Sequence record: OQ174500.1
DNA length: 64,000 nt
Direction: 5' to 3' (one strand)
From: Escherichia phage REP1
Below, piece after piece: positions 6,658-49,064 of the stretch. The notes beneath the pieces were generated by a model, which made no database searches, was not told where the DNA came from, and saw only the letters and a program-made list of their open reading frames with translations. The translations under genes and the position numbers were made by a program. How positions within the stretch are numbered: the stretch's first letter is position 1; every line of letters starts with the position of its first letter.

Positions 6658-7587
6658 ATGAAAACTCGTAAACATTATATTGATTATTTTGACAGTCTTA
6701 TTACTAAACACCGTAATTATCAGATCGGGCACAGAGCAGTAATCAATAATATTCTTCGTGATTTCCTTCAATATGTTGGTCAGGAAAATCATATCTGTAA
6801 AGATACTCAAAACGCTTATTCTCATTCGTTAGGCAATTTGCTTGAATGGTTTAAACGTTCTCGTATGTTATCTTCTACTGTAGCTCGTGAGAACATTAAA
6901 AACTTTATGAAGCCGAGCTTCATTAAATCTGAGACATCTATAACCGATTTGGTTGAATTTACTATTGTTAATGATGTTAAAAAGACCCATTTGGCTGATT
7001 GGTTATCTACCATTCCTGAAACTACATTTGCTGATAAGTTCGCTTGTCAATTCAATGACCAAGTGAATATGCTTTTTAAGCATGCTCGTAAACTATTTAC
7101 CGCGGGCGATGACCGTACAAATACAGTTCATGTTAAGGACTGGGTTATTGCTGATGAAGTAACACACAAGCCAGGTGGTTCATCAGTATTAATTAATATC
7201 CAGGTTCCTTATTATTACTCACGTAATCTTGGCACCATGACAGCTAAAGAAATTAATAAGCACAACAAAACTATTCGTTCGTTGTCTTATAAACTCCGCA
7301 TGATGTTAAAAATTATGGACGTAGTGGAAATGTATGACGAAACCGAAGATAATGGTTCAATGTTATACAGTTCACGCATTCTAATTAAACTGAAGAACCC
7401 TAATACATATAAGACAGTTGTAAAAGAGCCTAAAGTAGAAAAGGTTGATAACCTGAGCGAAGAACGTGAATATCTCAATGCTCGTTTGATTGAAGTTGAA
7501 GCCCAGATTGCCGAACACACCAAATTGTTAAAAGCTCTTAATGCAAAAGCAAATGGTTTACGTAATGCTATTGAGGTATTGAAATGA
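6658..7587 (+). CDS. hypothetical protein with C-terminal coiled-coil tail (array member 4 of 4)
   Basis: 309 aa; C-terminal segment [33 protein letters not shown]. Confidence 0.6.
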   Translation: MKTRKHYIDYFDSLITKHRNYQIGHRAVINNILRDFLQYVGQENHICKDTQNAYSHSLGNLLEWFKRSRMLSSTVARENIKNFMKPSFIKSETSITDLVEFTIVNDVKKTHLADWLSTIPETTFADKFACQFNDQVNMLFKHARKLFTAGDDRTNTVHVKDWVIADEVTHKPGGSSVLINIQVPYYYSRNLGTMTAKEINKHNKTIRSLSYKLRMMLKIMDVVEMYDETEDNGSMLYSSRILIKLKNPNTYKTVVKEPKVEKVDNLSEEREYLNARLIEVEAQIAEHTKLLKALNAKANGLRNAIEVLK

Positions 7588-43012: not shown

Positions 43013-43324
43013 ATGGTTTATGTATATGCGATAGTTTACCGAGACAAAGACGGATTTACTGCGCCAGTTCCACTTGATGAACATCGTCCTGCTGTGTTTT
43101 TTGAAAGAGAGATTGCTGATAGAGTTTTTACTACTCTCAAAGACCAATATCGACTAGCTTTAGGTATGGGAATTCCAAGACTAGTTGAGACTCCACGCAA
43201 GTTTTGGTTTAATAAAATAGAAGTTAAACATGTTAAGCCTGATGTAGATACACAAAGATTATATCAACGAATTCTAGATACTGGGCGTATTGTTAGTATT
43301 CCAATTGCAGGGACTTTCCGATGA
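43013..43324 (+). CDS. hypothetical protein (dda.1 position)
   Basis: 103-codon ORF, ATGA overlap with dda. Confidence 0.55.
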   Translation: MVYVYAIVYRDKDGFTAPVPLDEHRPAVFFEREIADRVFTTLKDQYRLALGMGIPRLVETPRKFWFNKIEVKHVKPDVDTQRLYQRILDTGRIVSIPIAGTFR

Positions 43325-44640
43325 CATTTGATGATTTGACAGAAGGCCAGAAAAATGCCTTTAACATCGTTATGAGGGCTATTAAAGAAAAGAAACATCA
43401 TGTAACTATTAATGGACCTGCTGGTACTGGTAAGACTACTCTTACTAAGTTCATCATTGAAGCTTTAATATCAACAGGCGAAACTGGTATCATTTTGGCA
43501 GCTCCTACACATGCAGCTAAAAAGATTCTTTCAAAACTGTCGGGGAAAGAAGCGAGTACTATTCACAGTATTCTTAAAATTAACCCAGTTACGTATGAAG
43601 AAAACGTTCTTTTTGAACAGAAGGAAGTACCAGATTTAGCTAAATGCAGGGTATTAATCTGCGACGAAGTGTCAATGTATGATAGAAAGCTATTTAAAAT
43701 TCTGCTTTCAACTATTCCACCTTGGTGTACTATAATTGGAATAGGTGATAATAAGCAAATTAGACCTGTTGATCCAGGAGAAAATACTGCTTATATCAGT
43801 CCATTCTTTACACACAAAGATTTTTATCAGTGTGAACTTACTGAAGTTAAACGCAGTAATGCTCCTATTATTGATGTAGCTACTGATGTTCGCAACGGTA
43901 AGTGGATTTATGATAAAGTTGTTGACGGGCATGGAGTACGTGGATTTACTGGTGATACCGCTTTACGCGATTTTATGGTAAATTATTTTTCAATCGTAAA
44001 ATCATTAGATGATTTGTTTGAAAATCGCGTAATGGCATTTACGAATAAATCTGTTGACAAGTTAAATAGCATTATTCGTAAAAAGATTTTTGAAACTGAT
44101 AAAGATTTTATTGTTGGTGAAATTATTGTAATGCAGGAACCATTAATTAAAACATATAAAATTGATGGAAAGCCTGTGTCAGAAATTATTTTTAATAACG
44201 GACAATTAGTTCGTATTATAGAAGCAGAGTATACATCAACGTTTGTTAAAGCTCGTGGTGTTACTGGAGAATACTTAATTCGTCATTGGGATTTAACAGT
44301 AGAAACTTATGGCGATGATGAATATTATCGTGAAAAGATTAAAATAATTTCATCTGATGAAGAGCTATATAAGTTTAACCTGTTTTTAGGTAAAACGGCA
44401 GAAACTTATAAAAATTGGAACAAAGGCGGAAAAGCTCCGTGGAGTGATTTTTGGGATGCTAAATCACAGTTTAGTAAAGTGAAAGCACTTCCTGCATCAA
44501 CATTCCATAAAGCTCAGGGTATGTCTGTAGACCGTGCTTTCATTTATACGCCTTGTATTCATTATGCAGATGCTGAACTAGCTCAACAACTTCTTTATGT
44601 TGGTGTAACACGTGGTCGTTATGATGTATTTTATGTGTGA
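43321..44640 (+). CDS. dda: SF1 DNA helicase Dda
   Basis: 439 aa; Walker A GPAGTGKTT, Walker B LICDEVSM. Confidence 0.9.
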   Translation: MTFDDLTEGQKNAFNIVMRAIKEKKHHVTINGPAGTGKTTLTKFIIEALISTGETGIILAAPTHAAKKILSKLSGKEASTIHSILKINPVTYEENVLFEQKEVPDLAKCRVLICDEVSMYDRKLFKILLSTIPPWCTIIGIGDNKQIRPVDPGENTAYISPFFTHKDFYQCELTEVKRSNAPIIDVATDVRNGKWIYDKVVDGHGVRGFTGDTALRDFMVNYFSIVKSLDDLFENRVMAFTNKSVDKLNSIIRKKIFETDKDFIVGEIIVMQEPLIKTYKIDGKPVSEIIFNNGQLVRIIEAEYTSTFVKARGVTGEYLIRHWDLTVETYGDDEYYREKIKIISSDEELYKFNLFLGKTAETYKNWNKGGKAPWSDFWDAKSQFSKVKALPASTFHKAQGMSVDRAFIYTPCIHYADAELAQQLLYVGVTRGRYDVFYV

Positions 44641-44646
44641 GGCTAT

Positions 44647-44907
44647 ATGATTAACATCAATTCAAAATATTTAAATCGTCTAATAGATGGTATAAGGAAG
44701 CATACTAATAAGCAAGATAATCTCGATGTTATGGTAACAGGAGCTGAGCTCCTTCATAAGCTTTATCTTATAAGTGATACTATATTAGCAATTAAACGAA
44801 TTGAAAAACAATCATATCACAGTAATACAGATACGGTAATTACACTAGATGAAAGTGTCTGTAAATTACTAATTAAATTTGAGGAAGCTATTCGTGGAAA
44901 TAACTAA
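44647..44907 (+). CDS. hypothetical protein (tandem paralog 1 of 3)
   Basis: 86 aa; shared pattern with the next two ORFs. Confidence 0.5.
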   Translation: MININSKYLNRLIDGIRKHTNKQDNLDVMVTGAELLHKLYLISDTILAIKRIEKQSYHSNTDTVITLDESVCKLLIKFEEAIRGNN

Positions 44908-45139
44908 AGATCAGTTTTATCTTCTTCAGGATAAAGTTAGCGAAATTTATGAAATTGCTCATGGTAAAAATCGTGAAACTGTAAAAATTGAATCTAGTAA
45001 GTTGATGCTTCAATTAGAAGAAATTGAACGAGATTTAATTGCGTTAGAATTCTTTTGCGGTGAAGTGAAAACTGTTACAATTAATGATTATGTTTTAGGC
45101 GAAATTAGCTATCTTTATGAGGCGATTATTAATGATTGA
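44879..45139 (+). CDS. hypothetical protein (tandem paralog 2 of 3)
   Basis: 86 aa; overlaps neighbours. Confidence 0.5.
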   Translation: MRKLFVEITKDQFYLLQDKVSEIYEIAHGKNRETVKIESSKLMLQLEEIERDLIALEFFCGEVKTVTINDYVLGEISYLYEAIIND

Positions 45140-45374
45140 ATTAAGTTGGTACCAATTTAAATCTCTTATGACAAATGTTAAAGCTGTCATTGAAGAAAAT
45201 TCAGGACCTGATAATGTTACTATTCGCGAAAAAGCTTTAAAGATAGTATACAGTCTTGAAGAGATACAAAAAGATATTGAATCTATGGCAAAATTTATTG
45301 ATGAGCCTATTAATAAAGTTTATATTCAAGACTATACTGTAGGTCAAATTCGCGATTTAGCAAGGAAAATTTAA
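45117..45374 (+). CDS. hypothetical protein (tandem paralog 3 of 3)
   Basis: 85 aa; similar to the previous ORF (LEEIE/QKDI, DY-x-GQI). Confidence 0.5.
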   Translation: MRRLLMIELSWYQFKSLMTNVKAVIEENSGPDNVTIREKALKIVYSLEEIQKDIESMAKFIDEPINKVYIQDYTVGQIRDLARKI

Positions 45375-46057
45375 TGTTTGATTTTATTATAGATTTTGAA
45401 ACAATGGGAAGTGGTGAAAAAGCAGCTGTTATTGATTTGGCTGTAATTGCTTTTGACCCTAATCCAGAAGTCGTTGAAACATTTGATGAATTAGTTTCAC
45501 GTGGCATTAAAATCAAATTTGATTTAAAAAGCCAAAAAGGACATCGTCTTTTTACTAAAAGCACTATCGAATGGTGGAAGAATCAATCCCCTGAAGCTCG
45601 AAAAAATATTGCGCCATCAGATGAAGATGTAAGCACTATCGATGGTATTGCAAAATTTAATGATTACATCAATGCGCATAATATCGATCCTTGGAAATCT
45701 CAAGGCTGGTGCCGTGGAATGTCGTTTGATTTTCCAATTTTAGTCGATCTCATTCGCGATATTCAACGTCTTAACGGCGTTTCCGAGAATGAGCTTGATA
45801 CATTTAAGTTAGAACCGTGTAAATTCTGGAATCAGCGTGATATTCGTACCAGAATTGAAGCACTTCTCCTTGTTCGTGATATGACTACGTGTCCTCTTCC
45901 AAAAGGAACTTTAGATGGATTCGTTGCGCATGATTCCATTCATGACTGTGCGAAAGACATCCTGATGATGAAGTATGCTTTGCGCTATGCTATGGGTCTT
46001 GAAGATGCTCCGTCAGAGGAAGAGTGCGATCCTCTATCTCTTCCAACAAAACGATAA
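45374..46057 (+). CDS. dexA: exonuclease A
   Basis: 227 aa; DnaQ-like exonuclease motifs; size equals T4 DexA. Confidence 0.8.
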   Translation: MFDFIIDFETMGSGEKAAVIDLAVIAFDPNPEVVETFDELVSRGIKIKFDLKSQKGHRLFTKSTIEWWKNQSPEARKNIAPSDEDVSTIDGIAKFNDYINAHNIDPWKSQGWCRGMSFDFPILVDLIRDIQRLNGVSENELDTFKLEPCKFWNQRDIRTRIEALLLVRDMTTCPLPKGTLDGFVAHDSIHDCAKDILMMKYALRYAMGLEDAPSEEECDPLSLPTKR

Positions 46058-46063
46058 AAAGTT

Positions 46064-46093
46064 GTTTACTTCCTCGGTTAGTTGTGGTATTAT
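46064..46093 (+). promoter_or_regulatory. T4-type early promoter
   Basis: GTTTAC, 18 bp, GTGGTATTAT. Confidence 0.55.
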
Positions 46094-46120: not shown

Positions 46121-46624
46121 ATGAAAATTTATCGTGTTGAATCATCATTTAGTATTCTTAATTATGAAGATGCTATAACAATACGTCGAGATCTTTGTGT
46201 TCAAATAACTCCGTACAGGAGTATAATGGATTCATGGAGCGAAGAGTGGTTATTACACGTAGGTTATGACAGACCTAATTTTATGCATCATAGTAATGAT
46301 AATAAAAGAATTCCTCTTCCGCACGAAGACAAACTATTAGTTAAAAATGCTAATATAGCAATTAATACTAATTTTGAGAAAGAAGAATATGTAGGCGTAG
46401 ATCACTATATTCCAGGATGGTTTATAGCTCTTTATCATTTTGCTTTTGCTAGTGAATATGATATGATGAGATGGTTCACACGAGAAGAGCGTGAAGAATT
46501 AGCTTCTAAAGGATTTTATCTCGCTGTATACGAAGTACCTGAAGATAAAGTTATCATTGGTGGGCATCAAGTAATGTTCCGCAAGTCACATGCCGAATTA
46601 AAAGGCTTTATTACCTTAGATTAA
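46121..46624 (+). CDS. hypothetical protein (motB region)
   Basis: 167 aa from ATG 46121 with GAGGATAATAAA RBS. Confidence 0.5.
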   Translation: MKIYRVESSFSILNYEDAITIRRDLCVQITPYRSIMDSWSEEWLLHVGYDRPNFMHHSNDNKRIPLPHEDKLLVKNANIAINTNFEKEEYVGVDHYIPGWFIALYHFAFASEYDMMRWFTREEREELASKGFYLAVYEVPEDKVIIGGHQVMFRKSHAELKGFITLD

Positions 46625-46634
46625 AGAGAAAATT

Positions 46635-47072
46635 ATGATTAAAAATAATGCTGTTTATCAATTGAAAAAATTTGATGAAATTAAGAATTTTTCGGTACTG
46701 TCTAATACAGCTCATAATAAGTTTTGTGAACTTCTTGGTTTAACTGGCGGATATCCTTTTACTGTTATTAGTGTTAATAGCGGAATTCTTATCGGTATGA
46801 TGTATATTGAAATTAGAAACTATTATGGAATGGTATCACCGCTTATTATTTATGAAAAAGATTTTAGTCTATTGACAGAAATTGAAAAACCTGAAGATCC
46901 AACTGATCTGCTGTGTAAGGCAGTTTATATTCGTCGTCCATTCGCGAATCCTGTGGGTGGATGGGTGACTGATCAGTGGATTGAAGATGGTGTTGAACTT
47001 CTGAACGTAGTTCATGCTGGAGAGTACTCTGTAGTTCCTCGCAGCGCAGTGATTAATGTTCGTGTAAGCTAG
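46635..47072 (+). CDS. hypothetical protein (DQW-EDG family, member 1 of 3)
   Basis: 145 aa; C-terminal TDQWIEDGVELLNVVHAGEYSVVP. Confidence 0.55.
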   Translation: MIKNNAVYQLKKFDEIKNFSVLSNTAHNKFCELLGLTGGYPFTVISVNSGILIGMMYIEIRNYYGMVSPLIIYEKDFSLLTEIEKPEDPTDLLCKAVYIRRPFANPVGGWVTDQWIEDGVELLNVVHAGEYSVVPRSAVINVRVS

Positions 47073-47100
47073 TTTACAAACTCTTGGACCAGAGTATAAT
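47072..47100 (+). promoter_or_regulatory. T4-type early promoter
   Basis: GTTTAC overlapping the upstream stop, 17 bp, TATAAT; followed by a TATAAATC element at 47113. Confidence 0.55.
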
Positions 47101-47143
47101 GGTCCTGCGGAGTATAAATCTTAACAACAAAGAGAGAAAAATT

Positions 47144-47617
47144 ATGATTACTATCGGTGAAATTAAGCGTGTATCGTCTGCATCTCGTTCTAAAGCTGCA
47201 GGTCGTCTAGTTGAAGTGGTAGGACTTCGTACTAATGGTACTGGTCGTGTTAAAGAAGTTAAAGTTCGAATCATTCCTAGTTCTGGAAAAACTGAAACTC
47301 AGTACGCTTACGTAAGTCCTAAATTTCTGGAAACTCGTGTTAGCTCTCATTTTGCTTCTGTTGAAGAAGTTGAATCCACTGAGTCTAATGCACAATTTAA
47401 ATGGGCGTTGTGTAAAGGCGTTGAATTTGTAACTGATGAAGAATTCGATTATATTGATGATTTCGCTGGTCCAAGTAAAACTGATAGGATGTGTGGCTTC
47501 ATCACAGACCAATGGGTTGAAGATGGTGAAAAGCTCTACAATATCGTATTCTTAGGTGACTTCCGGGTTGTTGAAGAATCTGAAATCACTCGTTATGCTT
47601 CTCCTCATAAAGCTTAA
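47144..47617 (+). CDS. hypothetical protein (DQW-EDG family, member 2 of 3)
   Basis: 157 aa from ATG 47144; ITDQWVEDGEKLYNIVFLGDFRVV. Confidence 0.55.
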   Translation: MITIGEIKRVSSASRSKAAGRLVEVVGLRTNGTGRVKEVKVRIIPSSGKTETQYAYVSPKFLETRVSSHFASVEEVESTESNAQFKWALCKGVEFVTDEEFDYIDDFAGPSKTDRMCGFITDQWVEDGEKLYNIVFLGDFRVVEESEITRYASPHKA

Positions 47618-47626
47618 GGAATTATT

Positions 47627-48046
47627 ATGAATATTGTAAATCTCTCTACTGGTGATTACGTATATGTATCCGTTGCTTCTCGTTCTAAAGTTGCAGGAAA
47701 GCTGGTTGAAGTTCTTTCTGTAAGTGATCCAGTTTTTGGTCGTAACGAGGTTAAAGTTCGTGACGCTGATGGTAACATTGGTTATGTCTCAAGTCAGTTC
47801 ATTGAGCCAGAAGAAAGCGCATTTAAATGGAAACTTTGTTCTTCAGTTTTAGTTGTAAAAGACCATAAATTCACAATTGCGGCGGCAACAGATGGAACTC
47901 CATGGACAACGAATCAAGTCGCTGGTTTTATTTCGGACCGTTGGGTAGAAGATGGTGTCAAGCTCTACAATATTGTTTTTGCAGGCCAGTTCATGGTAGT
48001 TCCTGAATTCCAAATTAAAAAATGGTGCGAAGCAGCTTTAGCATAA
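47627..48046 (+). CDS. hypothetical protein (DQW-EDG family, member 3 of 3)
   Basis: 139 aa; ISDRWVEDGVKLYNIVFAGQFMVVP; N-terminal ASRSKVAGKLVEV shared with member 2. Confidence 0.55.
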   Translation: MNIVNLSTGDYVYVSVASRSKVAGKLVEVLSVSDPVFGRNEVKVRDADGNIGYVSSQFIEPEESAFKWKLCSSVLVVKDHKFTIAAATDGTPWTTNQVAGFISDRWVEDGVKLYNIVFAGQFMVVPEFQIKKWCEAALA

Positions 48047-48100
48047 ATTTGCATAAAGTTTAAAATTTTTCATAAAACTATATACATCAGTAGTTGATTA

Positions 48101-48109
48101 TGGTACTAT
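48101..48109 (+). promoter_or_regulatory. early-promoter-like extended -10 with conserved leader (no canonical -35)
   Basis: TGgTACTAT plus leader ...ATCAACTACTGATACAG...GGAGAATAAAATG. Confidence 0.4.
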
Positions 48110-48152
48110 ATCAATATCAACTACTGATACAGAAAACAACTTGGAGAATAAA

Positions 48153-48422
48153 ATGGAAAATTTAATTATCATCGAGCAATCTTTCAATGATTATGGTATG
48201 GCTTATGGTTATCGTGCGATAATGGAAGATTCTCGTGGATGTGTTATCGATATTGCTGAATGTAAAGATTTACTGCAGCTTTTGAAGATTGTTCGCAAAA
48301 ATTGGGATTGTGAAAATATTAAAGTTCGAGTTGTTACAGAAGAAGAAACTGTTTTTCATGATGTAAAATTTGCCAAAGGTGCTGCTACTCTTCTGAAACG
48401 CATCGCTCCACTGTTCAATTAA
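48153..48422 (+). CDS. hypothetical protein
   Basis: 89 aa from ATG 48153; track start 48141 is TTG. Confidence 0.5.
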   Translation: MENLIIIEQSFNDYGMAYGYRAIMEDSRGCVIDIAECKDLLQLLKIVRKNWDCENIKVRVVTEEETVFHDVKFAKGAATLLKRIAPLFN

Positions 48423-48435
48423 TGAGGAAATTGTA

Positions 48436-48651
48436 ATGAAACGTAAAATTGTTCAGAATTGCACTAATGACGAATTTGAAGATGTATTATTTGATCCAGA
48501 TTTGGTAGTGGTTCAAAAGGAACATACCGTTAAGTTTACTCACTTGACTTCGGTTTATGTGTATGAGAAAGTCGGTGATAAACAGCCAATTTACGGTGTA
48601 TTTCGTGAAATTACTGAAAACGGCACAACTTACTGGAAGGAAATTTATTAA
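48436..48651 (+). CDS. hypothetical small protein
   Basis: 71-codon ORF with GAGGAAATTG RBS. Confidence 0.5.
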
Positions 48652-49064
48652 TGGCTATTAAATTTGAAGTTAATAAATGGTATCAATTTAAAAATAAACA
48701 AGCTCAAGAAAATTTTATTAAAGACCATACTGAAAACGGACTCTACGCACGACGTTTAGGTATGTATCCTTTTAAAATTTTAGATGTGGACGCTCTTGGG
48801 CGTCCAATTAAAATTTTGTCATCTACTGGAAATTTAGTACTATCTTCTGGTAAAGATGTTTTGGATGAAGACTTTATTTGGCTTTCAAAAAGTGAAGCTG
48901 GGTTCTTTGATGAAGTGGAAAATCCATATCAGGCAGCTGAAGAGCAGGAAGACCCTGCACCAGTAATTGACCCATCTGAGTTTCCTTTAATGAAAATTAC
49001 TATTGAAAATAATTACCAAGCATGGTCTTTATATCAGATGCTGAAAGCTCACTTTAAGGAATAA
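48651..49064 (+). CDS. hypothetical protein
   Basis: 137-codon ORF; TAATG overlap. Confidence 0.5.

What the first reader, a model, noticed from the sequence alone, without database searches (positions are those of the whole stretch)
46635..48046. Three paralogs with a conserved C-terminal D-Q/R-W-V/I-E-D-G...N-V/I-V-F/H-x-G motif
ORFs 46635-47072, 47144-47617 and 47627-48046 share a C-terminal block (TDQWIEDGVELLNVVHAGEYSVVP / TDQWVEDGEKLYNIVFLGDFRVV / SDRWVEDGVKLYNIVFAGQFMVVP). Members 2 and 3 also share an N-terminal ASRSKxAGxLVEV motif, and two of the three have their own early promoters. Function is unknown.
Basis: seen in the sequence. Interest (0 to 1): 0.45.

Follow-up and report, generated by a model that had tools for sequence, protein, structure and literature searches.

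The report
MotB-family paralogs of a T4-like phage
The three small genes are the known motB.1, motB and second motB-like genes of a T4-like phage; the C-terminal domain they share has been published and annotated, so the finding is real but ordinary.

Summary
ORFs 46635-47072, 47144-47617 and 47627-48046 are paralogs (BLASTP E 1e-29 to 2e-11), and all pass the Pfam PF17613 (MotB) cut-off. The window is a Tequatrovirus, 98% identical to RB3. The genes are the orthologs of T4 motB.1 and motB, plus a second motB-like gene that T4 lacks but about 207 phage records carry.

The shared C-terminal domain (CTD), the KOW-like N-terminus of MotB and the LSm-like N-terminus of MotB.1 are already published (Patterson-West 2021; Kim 2025). 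The motif is invariant across 66 homologs. The family is tiny: 36 clusters among 1.84 billion proteins.

New here:
- The shared domain, and most family members including all three here, are acidic. T4 MotB (pI 9.3) is an outlier.
- Only motB has its own strong promoter, so "two of three" is not supported.
- The 119-aa T4 reference MotB.1 results from one extra G found only in the reference record.

I infer that the N-terminal barrels bind nucleic acid and the shared barrel is a protein-interaction module. This is untested. Novelty: already known. Interest is low.

The parts
46065..46093 (+). Promoter-like site (TTTACT-17-TATTAT with TG) upstream of the motB.2 ortholog. It is the likely source of the transcript that carries motB.1.
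   Evidence: scan; sequence. motB.1 begins only 10 nt after the motB.2 stop.
46635..47072 (+). motB.1 ortholog, 145 aa. It has an LSm-like N-terminal barrel and a MotB-type C-terminal barrel.
   Evidence: PHROG 2333 E=9e-68 and PF17613 32.7 bits. It is 80% identical to re-sequenced T4 MotB.1 of 143 aa. AF2 model pLDDT 84.
46635..46895 (+). MotB.1 N-terminal domain (residues 1-87), the LSm-like / GoF-type barrel.
   Evidence: AF2 strands 7-10, 42-49, 55-61, 67-73, 80-83 with helix 24-37. BLASTP to the window's GoF gives E=3e-4. Published as LSm-like in PMC12152347.
46896..47069 (+). MotB.1 shared C-terminal domain (residues 88-145), with core GGWVTDQWIEDGVELLNVVHAGEYSVVP.
47073..47100 (+). Strong sigma-70-type early promoter of motB (GTTTACA ... 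TATAAT). The -10 hexamer sits in the loop of a short inverted repeat, GGACCA/TGGTCC (47086-47105).
   Evidence: 11 of 12 matches. The same sequence is present upstream of T4 motB although the MotB proteins are only 48% identical.
47144..47617 (+). motB ortholog, 157 aa. It has a KOW-like N-terminal barrel, an acidic linker and the shared C-terminal barrel (47396-47614).
   Evidence: PF17613 141.3 bits over positions 2-158 of 162. RB3 annotates the same CDS as motB. The ATG at 47144 lies downstream of the promoter and after a GAGAGA ribosome-binding-like stretch.
47627..48046 (+). Second motB-like paralog, 139 aa, absent from T4. It has a KOW-like N-terminal barrel (47627-47815) and the shared C-terminal barrel (47822-48043). 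It starts 9 nt after motB.
   Evidence: 100% identical to the 'MotB-like transcriptional regulator' of RB68 (P0121). PF17613 72.1 bits. An ortholog of at least 80% identity occurs in 207 of 777 matching phage records. AF2 pLDDT 84.

Best explanation
The three ORFs are the motB.1, motB and second motB-like genes of a T4-like phage (Tequatrovirus, close to RB3). They are early genes in the dispensable dexA-to-cef segment. Each protein consists of two small beta-barrels joined by a linker. MotB and MotB-like have a KOW-like N-terminal barrel carrying the SRSKxAG motif. MotB.1 has an LSm-like, GoF-type N-terminal barrel. L-x-N-[VI]-V ... G ... V-[VI]-P). That barrel is predicted to be SH3/Tudor-like. 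The paralogs arose by duplication and by swapping of N-terminal domains. Shown: the identity of the genes, the paralogy, conservation and purifying selection, the predicted fold, and co-transcription as motB.2-motB.1 and motB-motB-like. Taken from the literature on T4 MotB only: abundant early protein, non-specific DNA binding, changed H-NS footprint and de-repression of H-NS-silenced host genes, and a two-fold effect on burst size. Inferred: the variable N-terminal barrel supplies nucleic-acid binding (DNA for KOW-type MotB, possibly RNA for the LSm-like MotB.1). The shared, mostly acidic C-terminal barrel would be a common protein-interaction module, either self-association or docking to one shared partner, rather than the DNA-binding surface. 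My confidence is about 0.97 for gene identity, 0.8 for the fold and 0.35 for this division of labour.
Confidence: 0.55

Rival explanations
1. This is the published view. The shared CTD is an OB-fold, cold-shock-like nucleic-acid-binding domain, so all three proteins are DNA- or RNA-binding proteins through this block.
For: HHpred in PMC7827196 assigned the MotB CTD to SCOPe b.40.4.5, with eIF5A as the closest hit. T4 MotB binds DNA tightly and non-specifically. The T4 MotB CTD is net +3, pI 8.9. From general knowledge, not tested here: SH3-like barrels can also bind DNA.
Confidence: 0.2
2. The shared CTD is an oligomerisation domain through which the three paralogs form hetero-oligomers. These would combine KOW and LSm-like heads in one complex, for example to bridge DNA or to link DNA and RNA.
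For: The three genes are adjacent and expressed early from two neighbouring promoters. The CTD is the only part all three share. T4 MotB.1 runs as monomer and dimer on non-reducing SDS-PAGE. From recall of the Son et al. 2021 paper, which is not held in the library: DNA compaction by MotB would be helped by multivalency.
Against: The copy number of family genes varies. JK45 has motB and motB-like but no motB.1, and T4 has no motB-like. So no particular heteromer can be required. Published AlphaFold3 homo-multimer models had ipTM below 0.3; that test appears to have used the 119-aa (13.8 kDa) T4 sequence, which lacks half the CTD. Subfamily-specific differences in b3 (VELLNVVH vs VKLYNIVF) could argue for separate rather than mixed interfaces.
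Confidence: 0.2
3. The block is a chance or compositional resemblance, or the ORFs are not real genes.
For: None found.
Against: E-values of 1e-29 to 2e-11, Pfam scores above cut-off, invariant columns in 66 homologs and dN/dS of 0.12-0.34.
Confidence: 0.01

Closest known systems
T4 MotB (Pfam PF17613, PHROG 1671)
   Same: ORF 47144-47617 matches the whole Pfam model (141 bits) and ORF 47627-48046 matches it in two stretches (72 bits). Both have the same KOW-like NTD and CTD architecture. The position between dexA and cef is the same, and the early promoter is conserved.
   Different: The window's MotB is only 48% identical to T4 MotB and is acidic (pI 5.3 against 9.3). The second copy (139 aa, 37% identical to T4 MotB) has no T4 counterpart. 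No biochemistry exists for either.
T4 MotB.1, and the GoF / MotB.1 / Frd.2 LSm-like family (Kim et al. 2025, PMC12152347)
   Same: ORF 46635-47072 is the MotB.1 ortholog, 80% identical to re-sequenced T4 MotB.1. Its predicted N-terminal five-stranded barrel with one helix matches the published description, and it shows weak sequence similarity to the window's GoF.
   Different: The protein here (145 aa) carries the complete CTD. The 119-aa (13.8 kDa) T4 reference form described in the paper stops inside it.
Tudor / 'Royal family' and other SH3-like small barrels (53BP1, PHF19, ERCC6L2 Tudor; PWWP, chromo, BAH; PsaE; R67 DHFR)
   Different: Sequence identity is 9-21%, and there is no sequence-level relationship to any PDB chain. 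No aromatic cage could be checked. This is a fold resemblance only, not evidence for methyl-lysine reading.
KOW domains of NusG/Spt5 and ribosomal proteins
   Different: The window's own NTDs do not reach the Pfam KOW threshold. There is no NGN domain or other NusG context.
Archaeal SH3-like chromatin proteins (Sul7d/Sso7d, Cren7). This is recalled from general knowledge and was not tested.
   Same: They are small SH3-like barrels that act as abundant, non-specific DNA-binding nucleoid proteins, which is what T4 MotB is reported to be.

Membership tests
MotB family (Pfam PF17613) | Whole-protein score above the curated gathering cut-off (25 bits) | tested here: met
   32.7 bits (motB.1 ortholog, CTD only), 141.3 bits (motB) and 72.1 bits (motB-like).
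MotB family (Pfam PF17613) | C-terminal core motif G-x-[VI]-[ST]-D-x-W-x-E-[DE]-G ... L-x-N-[VI]-V ... G ... V-[VI]-P | tested here: met
   Present in all three. The columns are invariant or nearly invariant in 66 and 61 homologs and are retained in the most distant hits.
MotB family (Pfam PF17613) | KOW-like N-terminal domain with the SRSKxAG motif (MotB 'Category 1' of PMC7827196) | tested here: met
   Met for 47144-47617 and 47627-48046. Not met for 46635-47072, which therefore belongs to the MotB.1 branch (Category 2) rather than to MotB proper.
MotB family (Pfam PF17613) | Location in the early, dispensable dexA-cef segment of a Tevenvirinae genome | tested here: met
   The order dda, dexA, motB.2, motB.1, motB, motB-like, ORF, cef, goF, 39 matches RB3 and T4.
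MotB family (Pfam PF17613) | Non-specific DNA binding and alteration of H-NS binding or silencing | not testable with these tools
   Shown only for T4 MotB. The window's proteins are acidic, unlike T4 MotB.
GoF / MotB.1 / Frd.2 LSm-like family | N-terminal bent five-stranded antiparallel beta-sheet making up the first half of the protein | tested here: met
   The AF2 model of 46635-47072 has strands 7-10, 42-49, 55-61, 67-73 and 80-83. BLASTP to GoF gives E=3e-4. A GoF structure appears among the BFVD hits (rank 38).
SH3-like / Tudor-like small barrel (fold level) | Five strands in the order b1-b2-b3-b4, a 3-10 turn, then b5; structural neighbours are SH3-like barrels | tested here: met
Tudor 'reader' domains (functional family) | Aromatic cage that binds methylated Lys or Arg | not tested
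I do not claim membership.
OB-fold, cold-shock DNA-binding family (SCOPe b.40.4.5), as proposed in PMC7827196 | b1-b2-b3, a helix, then b4-b5 barrel; structural neighbours are OB-folds | tested here: not met

The most novel reading that the evidence does not exclude
The shared C-terminal barrel is a Tudor-like docking module. Its invariant acidic-aromatic strand (T-D-x-W-x-E-[DE]-G plus N-V-V) would recognise one conserved basic partner, for example a basic segment of H-NS/StpA or of another nucleoid or RNA-associated host protein. T-even phages would then use a set of interchangeable 'heads' (KOW-like, LSm-like, tandem GoF-like) on this one 'tail' to bring DNA- or RNA-binding activities to the same host target. 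On this reading, the DNA binding and compaction seen with the unusually basic T4 MotB would be a lineage-specific addition rather than the family's core function.
Probability: 0.2. Interest if true: 0.5.

Novelty: already known. Interest (0 to 1): 0.18.

Why it matters
The finding changes little by itself. The genes, the family (PF17613) and the CTD shared by MotB and MotB.1 are already in the literature and in RefSeq annotation.

The side results could help people who work on T4 host takeover:
- The shared domain looks SH3/Tudor-like and acidic rather than like an OB-fold DNA binder. This shifts the search for its function towards protein partners.
- T4 MotB is a charge outlier in its own family, so its nucleoid-protein behaviour may not generalise.
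- The 119-aa MotB.1 of the T4 reference record, the form described in the recent structure-prediction and expression study, seems to be truncated by a single-base insertion that other T4 genome records lack.

Tried and rejected
1. I looked for further copies of the block in the window with an HMM over all six frames. None turned up beyond the three.

2. I tested whether the N- and C-terminal barrels of MotB are an internal duplication, using hhalign of A4 against A3. The probability was 0.65%, so no relationship is detectable.

3. Sequence searches of the PDB with the full-length and CTD profiles found nothing meaningful. The best hit was V-ATPase subunit D at E=5, and the CTD profile had no hits.

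4. A BFVD (viral structure) fold search returned only family members, GoF and weak unannotated hits, so it gave no functional lead.

5. I tried to read Son et al. 2021 (NAR; the MotB DNA-compaction paper) by DOI and by PMC id. It is not held, so statements about compaction rest on how other held papers cite it and on my recall.

6. I considered RNA polymerase binding of the kind known for bacterial Tudor-like domains (CarD/Mfd RID, the PcrA C-terminal domain; from memory). I dropped it because the published account of the MotB pull-downs that I read names only H-NS and StpA as co-purifying partners.

7. A long-ORF start at 47084 (TTG) for motB was rejected in favour of the ATG at 47144. The promoter lies inside the extension, and related genomes annotate the shorter CDS.

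Full report
**What the window is.** The 2.7 kb around the finding is 98% identical to phages RB3, RB5-10, RB27 and JLBYU31. It matches 671 Tequatrovirus-type records. The + strand of the window is the transcribed strand of the T4 early region that runs from dda to gene 39. Comparison with the RB3 and T4 records gives this gene order:
- dda (43321-44640) and three small ORFs
- dexA (45374-46057)
- the motB.2 ortholog (46121-46624)
- ORF 46635-47072, the motB.1 ortholog
- ORF 47144-47617, motB
- ORF 47627-48046, a second motB-like gene that T4 lacks
- an extra small ORF (48153-48422), also absent from T4
- cef, goF, 39.2 and gene 39

**Checking the observation.** The three ORFs and the quoted peptide blocks are present as described.
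- BLASTP: motB vs motB-like is 40% identical over the whole length (E=1e-29). motB.1 vs motB gives E=2e-12. motB.1 vs motB-like is 53% identical over 32 residues (E=2e-11).
- The relationship is visible in DNA, with direct repeats 64-79% identical over 39-93 nt.
- All three exceed the curated cut-off of Pfam PF17613 'motB' (25 bits). The motB.1 ortholog matches through its C-terminus only, positions 118-153 of the model. PHROGs gives the same picture.
- An HMM of the block finds only these three copies in the 64-kb window.
It comes out the other way: eight columns are invariant and nine more are at least 90% conserved in 66 homologs.
- Against diverged orthologs, all three genes show dN/dS of 0.12-0.34.

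**The one part that does not hold is the promoter statement.** Only motB has a convincing promoter directly upstream (47073-47100, TTTACA-16-TATAAT, 11 of 12). Its sequence is nearly unchanged in T4, although the MotB proteins are only 48% identical. motB.1 begins 10 nt after the preceding gene and motB-like 9 nt after motB. A second promoter-like site (46065-46093) lies upstream of the motB.2 ortholog. The likely transcription units are therefore motB.2-motB.1 and motB-motB-like.

**What is already known.**
- Patterson-West et al. 2021 (PMC7827196) aligned 102 phage homologs. They described four categories that share the CTD, and named MotB.1 as a protein with the MotB CTD and a different NTD. 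They noted phages with extra copies and proposed a duplication.
- By HHpred they predicted a KOW-like NTD and an OB-fold CTD.
- T4 MotB binds DNA tightly without sequence specificity and co-purifies with H-NS and StpA only when DNA is present. It changes the H-NS footprint, de-represses part of the H-NS regulon when over-expressed, is toxic to E. coli, and raises burst size two-fold.
- Kim et al. 2025 (PMC12152347) showed by AlphaFold that the MotB.1 NTD belongs with GoF and Frd.2 in an LSm-like fold family. Deleting motB.1 gave no phenotype.
- The second motB-like protein is 100% identical to a protein that RefSeq names 'MotB-like transcriptional regulator'.

The finding is therefore a correct re-discovery.

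**Distribution.** A tblastn of the second paralog finds an ortholog of at least 80% identity in 207 of 777 matching phage records. The rest carry only the more distant MotB. A profile of the CTD alone was scored against 1.84 billion cluster representatives. It found 36 clusters at E<=1e-3. About 27 of these look real, and all are small two-domain proteins. The long multi-stretch hits, judged from the one I inspected (P0240), are repetitive proteins.

Most distant members have a KOW-like NTD plus the CTD, so that architecture is probably ancestral. The CTD is also found behind several other N-termini:
- an LSm-like NTD (143-169 aa)
- a different GoF-like NTD (177-183 aa)
- two tandem such NTDs (244-252 aa)
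- in a Klebsiella phage, a KOW NTD with a MotB.1-type CTD

The cassette is also rearranged between phages.

**Structure.** I predicted the motB.1 ortholog and the motB-like protein with alignments of 66 and 61 sequences. Both models have mean pLDDT 84.
- In both, the C-terminal domain is a five-stranded unit with a 3-10 turn between strands 4 and 5 and no helix between strands 3 and 4. This is the SH3-like pattern, not the OB pattern.
- KOW domains of Spt5 and NusG rise in rank only in the KOW-bearing model. No OB-fold protein appears in either top 60.
- The two models share only the CTD, so I attribute the common Tudor hits to it. The tool does not report aligned residue ranges, so this is an inference.
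- The NTD matches Pfam KOW in 4 of 18 members (best E=6.5e-6).
- The N- and C-terminal barrels are not detectably related in sequence. Neither profile finds a solved relative by sequence.

**Charge.**
- The CTD is acidic in most members (pI 4.1-5.2).
- The N-terminal region (KOW barrel plus linker) is basic in the window's MotB, T4 MotB and the most diverged members, but not in MotB-like (pI 4.6).
- T4 MotB is net +7 (pI 9.3), yet only 19 of 100 KOW-plus-CTD representatives are net positive.
- The window's MotB (-4) and MotB-like (-2) are acidic.
- None of the 125 proteins with a MotB.1-type CTD is net positive.

The columns that are invariant across the family are D, W, E, L, N, V and G, with no basic residue. 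A family-wide role of the shared block as an electrostatic DNA-binding surface is therefore unlikely. For the same reason, transferring the nucleoid-protein function of T4 MotB to these orthologs needs caution.

**Most likely mechanism.**
- Shown: three early-region genes (transcription units inferred from promoter and spacing, not measured) under purifying selection, encoding two-barrel proteins that share one C-terminal barrel.
- From the literature, for T4 MotB only: nucleoid and H-NS modulation.
- Inferred: the N-terminal barrels carry the nucleic-acid-binding activity. That would be DNA for the KOW type and perhaps RNA for the LSm-like type. The shared barrel would be a common protein-interaction module, either for self- or hetero-association or for docking on one partner.

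I put about 0.35 on this division of labour. None of these can be decided with the tools at hand. The published AlphaFold3 multimer test (ipTM below 0.3) appears to have used the 119-aa (13.8 kDa) T4 MotB.1, which lacks half of the CTD, so it does not bear on the question.

**Side observation on T4.**
- The T4 reference MotB.1 (119 aa) ends ...GGWVTDQWIGRWR*. Relative to the window, the reference has one extra G (tggattGgaagatgg). The remainder of the CTD is intact in the next frame.
- An 81-nt probe over the site matches without a gap only AF158101.6 and its RefSeq copy NC_000866.4.
- The 11 other T4-named records listed, plus RB55 and RB59, align over 80 nt.
- MT984581 annotates a 143-aa MotB.1 that is identical to the reference over its first 115 residues.
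- The 2025 paper does not contain the words 'frameshift' or 'truncat'.

This looks like an error or a stock-specific mutation in the reference sequence.

**Verdict.** The object is a known family in a known place, so novelty is 'already known' and interest is low. The fold re-assignment, the charge pattern and the T4 reference indel are modest additions.

Noticed in passing
L002 4218-4300 (T4 NC_000866.4, about 7217-7300, minus strand); corresponds to window 46975-47072: The T4 reference motB.1 (119 aa) is cut short by one extra G inside the conserved W-I-E-D-G codons, and the rest of the domain is intact in the next frame. Only AF158101.6 and NC_000866.4 have the extra base. The 11 other T4-named records listed, plus RB55 and RB59, lack it, and MT984581 annotates 143 aa. 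The 2025 MotB.1 study describes the protein as 13.8 kDa, the 119-aa size, and never mentions a frameshift.
   Followed up: yes
window 47144-47617 and 47627-48046; proteins P0207 and others: T4 MotB (net +7, pI 9.3) is a charge outlier. Only 19 of 100 KOW-plus-CTD representatives are net positive, and the window's MotB and MotB-like are acidic (pI 5.3-5.4). The DNA-binding nucleoid-protein behaviour of T4 MotB may not generalise.
   Followed up: partly
proteins P0004, P0027, P0030, P0040, P0119, P0230-P0238 (absent from window 46635-47072): A short module of about 20 residues, of the form h-D-x-D-h-x-S-M-Y-h-x-P-h-x-P, recurs in the linker or at the N-terminus of many family members. It is inserted or deleted as a unit: the 167-aa P0004 equals the window's 145-aa MotB.1 plus this insert. 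Its role is unknown.
   Followed up: no
protein P0241 (43 aa): This small ORF fuses the first 16 or so residues of MotB.2 (MKIYRVESSFSIL.YED) to the last 27 residues of the MotB.1 CTD. It is apparently a deletion remnant, comparable to the 29-aa RB69 peptide ('Category 3') mentioned in PMC7827196.
   Followed up: no
window 48047-48422: Between motB-like and cef lies an inverted repeat with 20-nt arms, 85% complementary, and a 3-nt loop (48086-48128). There is no T-run after it. It is followed by a 90-93-aa ORF (48141/48153-48422, PHROG 3720, unknown function). The ORF is absent from T4; in JK45 and phiE142 that position is occupied by a motB.2-like gene.
   Followed up: partly
window 47086-47105: The -10 hexamer of the motB promoter lies in the loop of a short inverted repeat, GGACCA-N8-TGGTCC. 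In T4 the stem is one pair longer (GGGACCA/TGGTCCC). On read-through RNA from motB.1 this would form a hairpin just after the stop codon.
   Followed up: no
window 46635-46895 vs 48651-49064: The N-terminal domain of the motB.1 ortholog shows weak but detectable sequence similarity to the window's GoF (BLASTP E=3e-4; YQxK ... YPF.V/I). This agrees with the published LSm-like family, which the authors reported finding with deep searches and structure prediction after conventional BLASTP showed no similarity.
   Followed up: yes
L004 2280-2804 and L005 2280-2804: In phages JK45 and phiE142 a motB.2-like gene (174 aa) sits downstream of motB-like instead of upstream of motB.1, and JK45 has no motB.1 at all. 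The dexA-cef segment is a shuffled cassette of small early genes.
   Followed up: partly
L001 395-640 and L002 6144-6389 (RefSeq records of RB3 and T4); window about 44879-45139: RefSeq names the 81-aa product of gene dexA.2 'dextranase'. This looks like a name-driven mis-annotation, since dexA stands for DNA exonuclease A.
   Followed up: no
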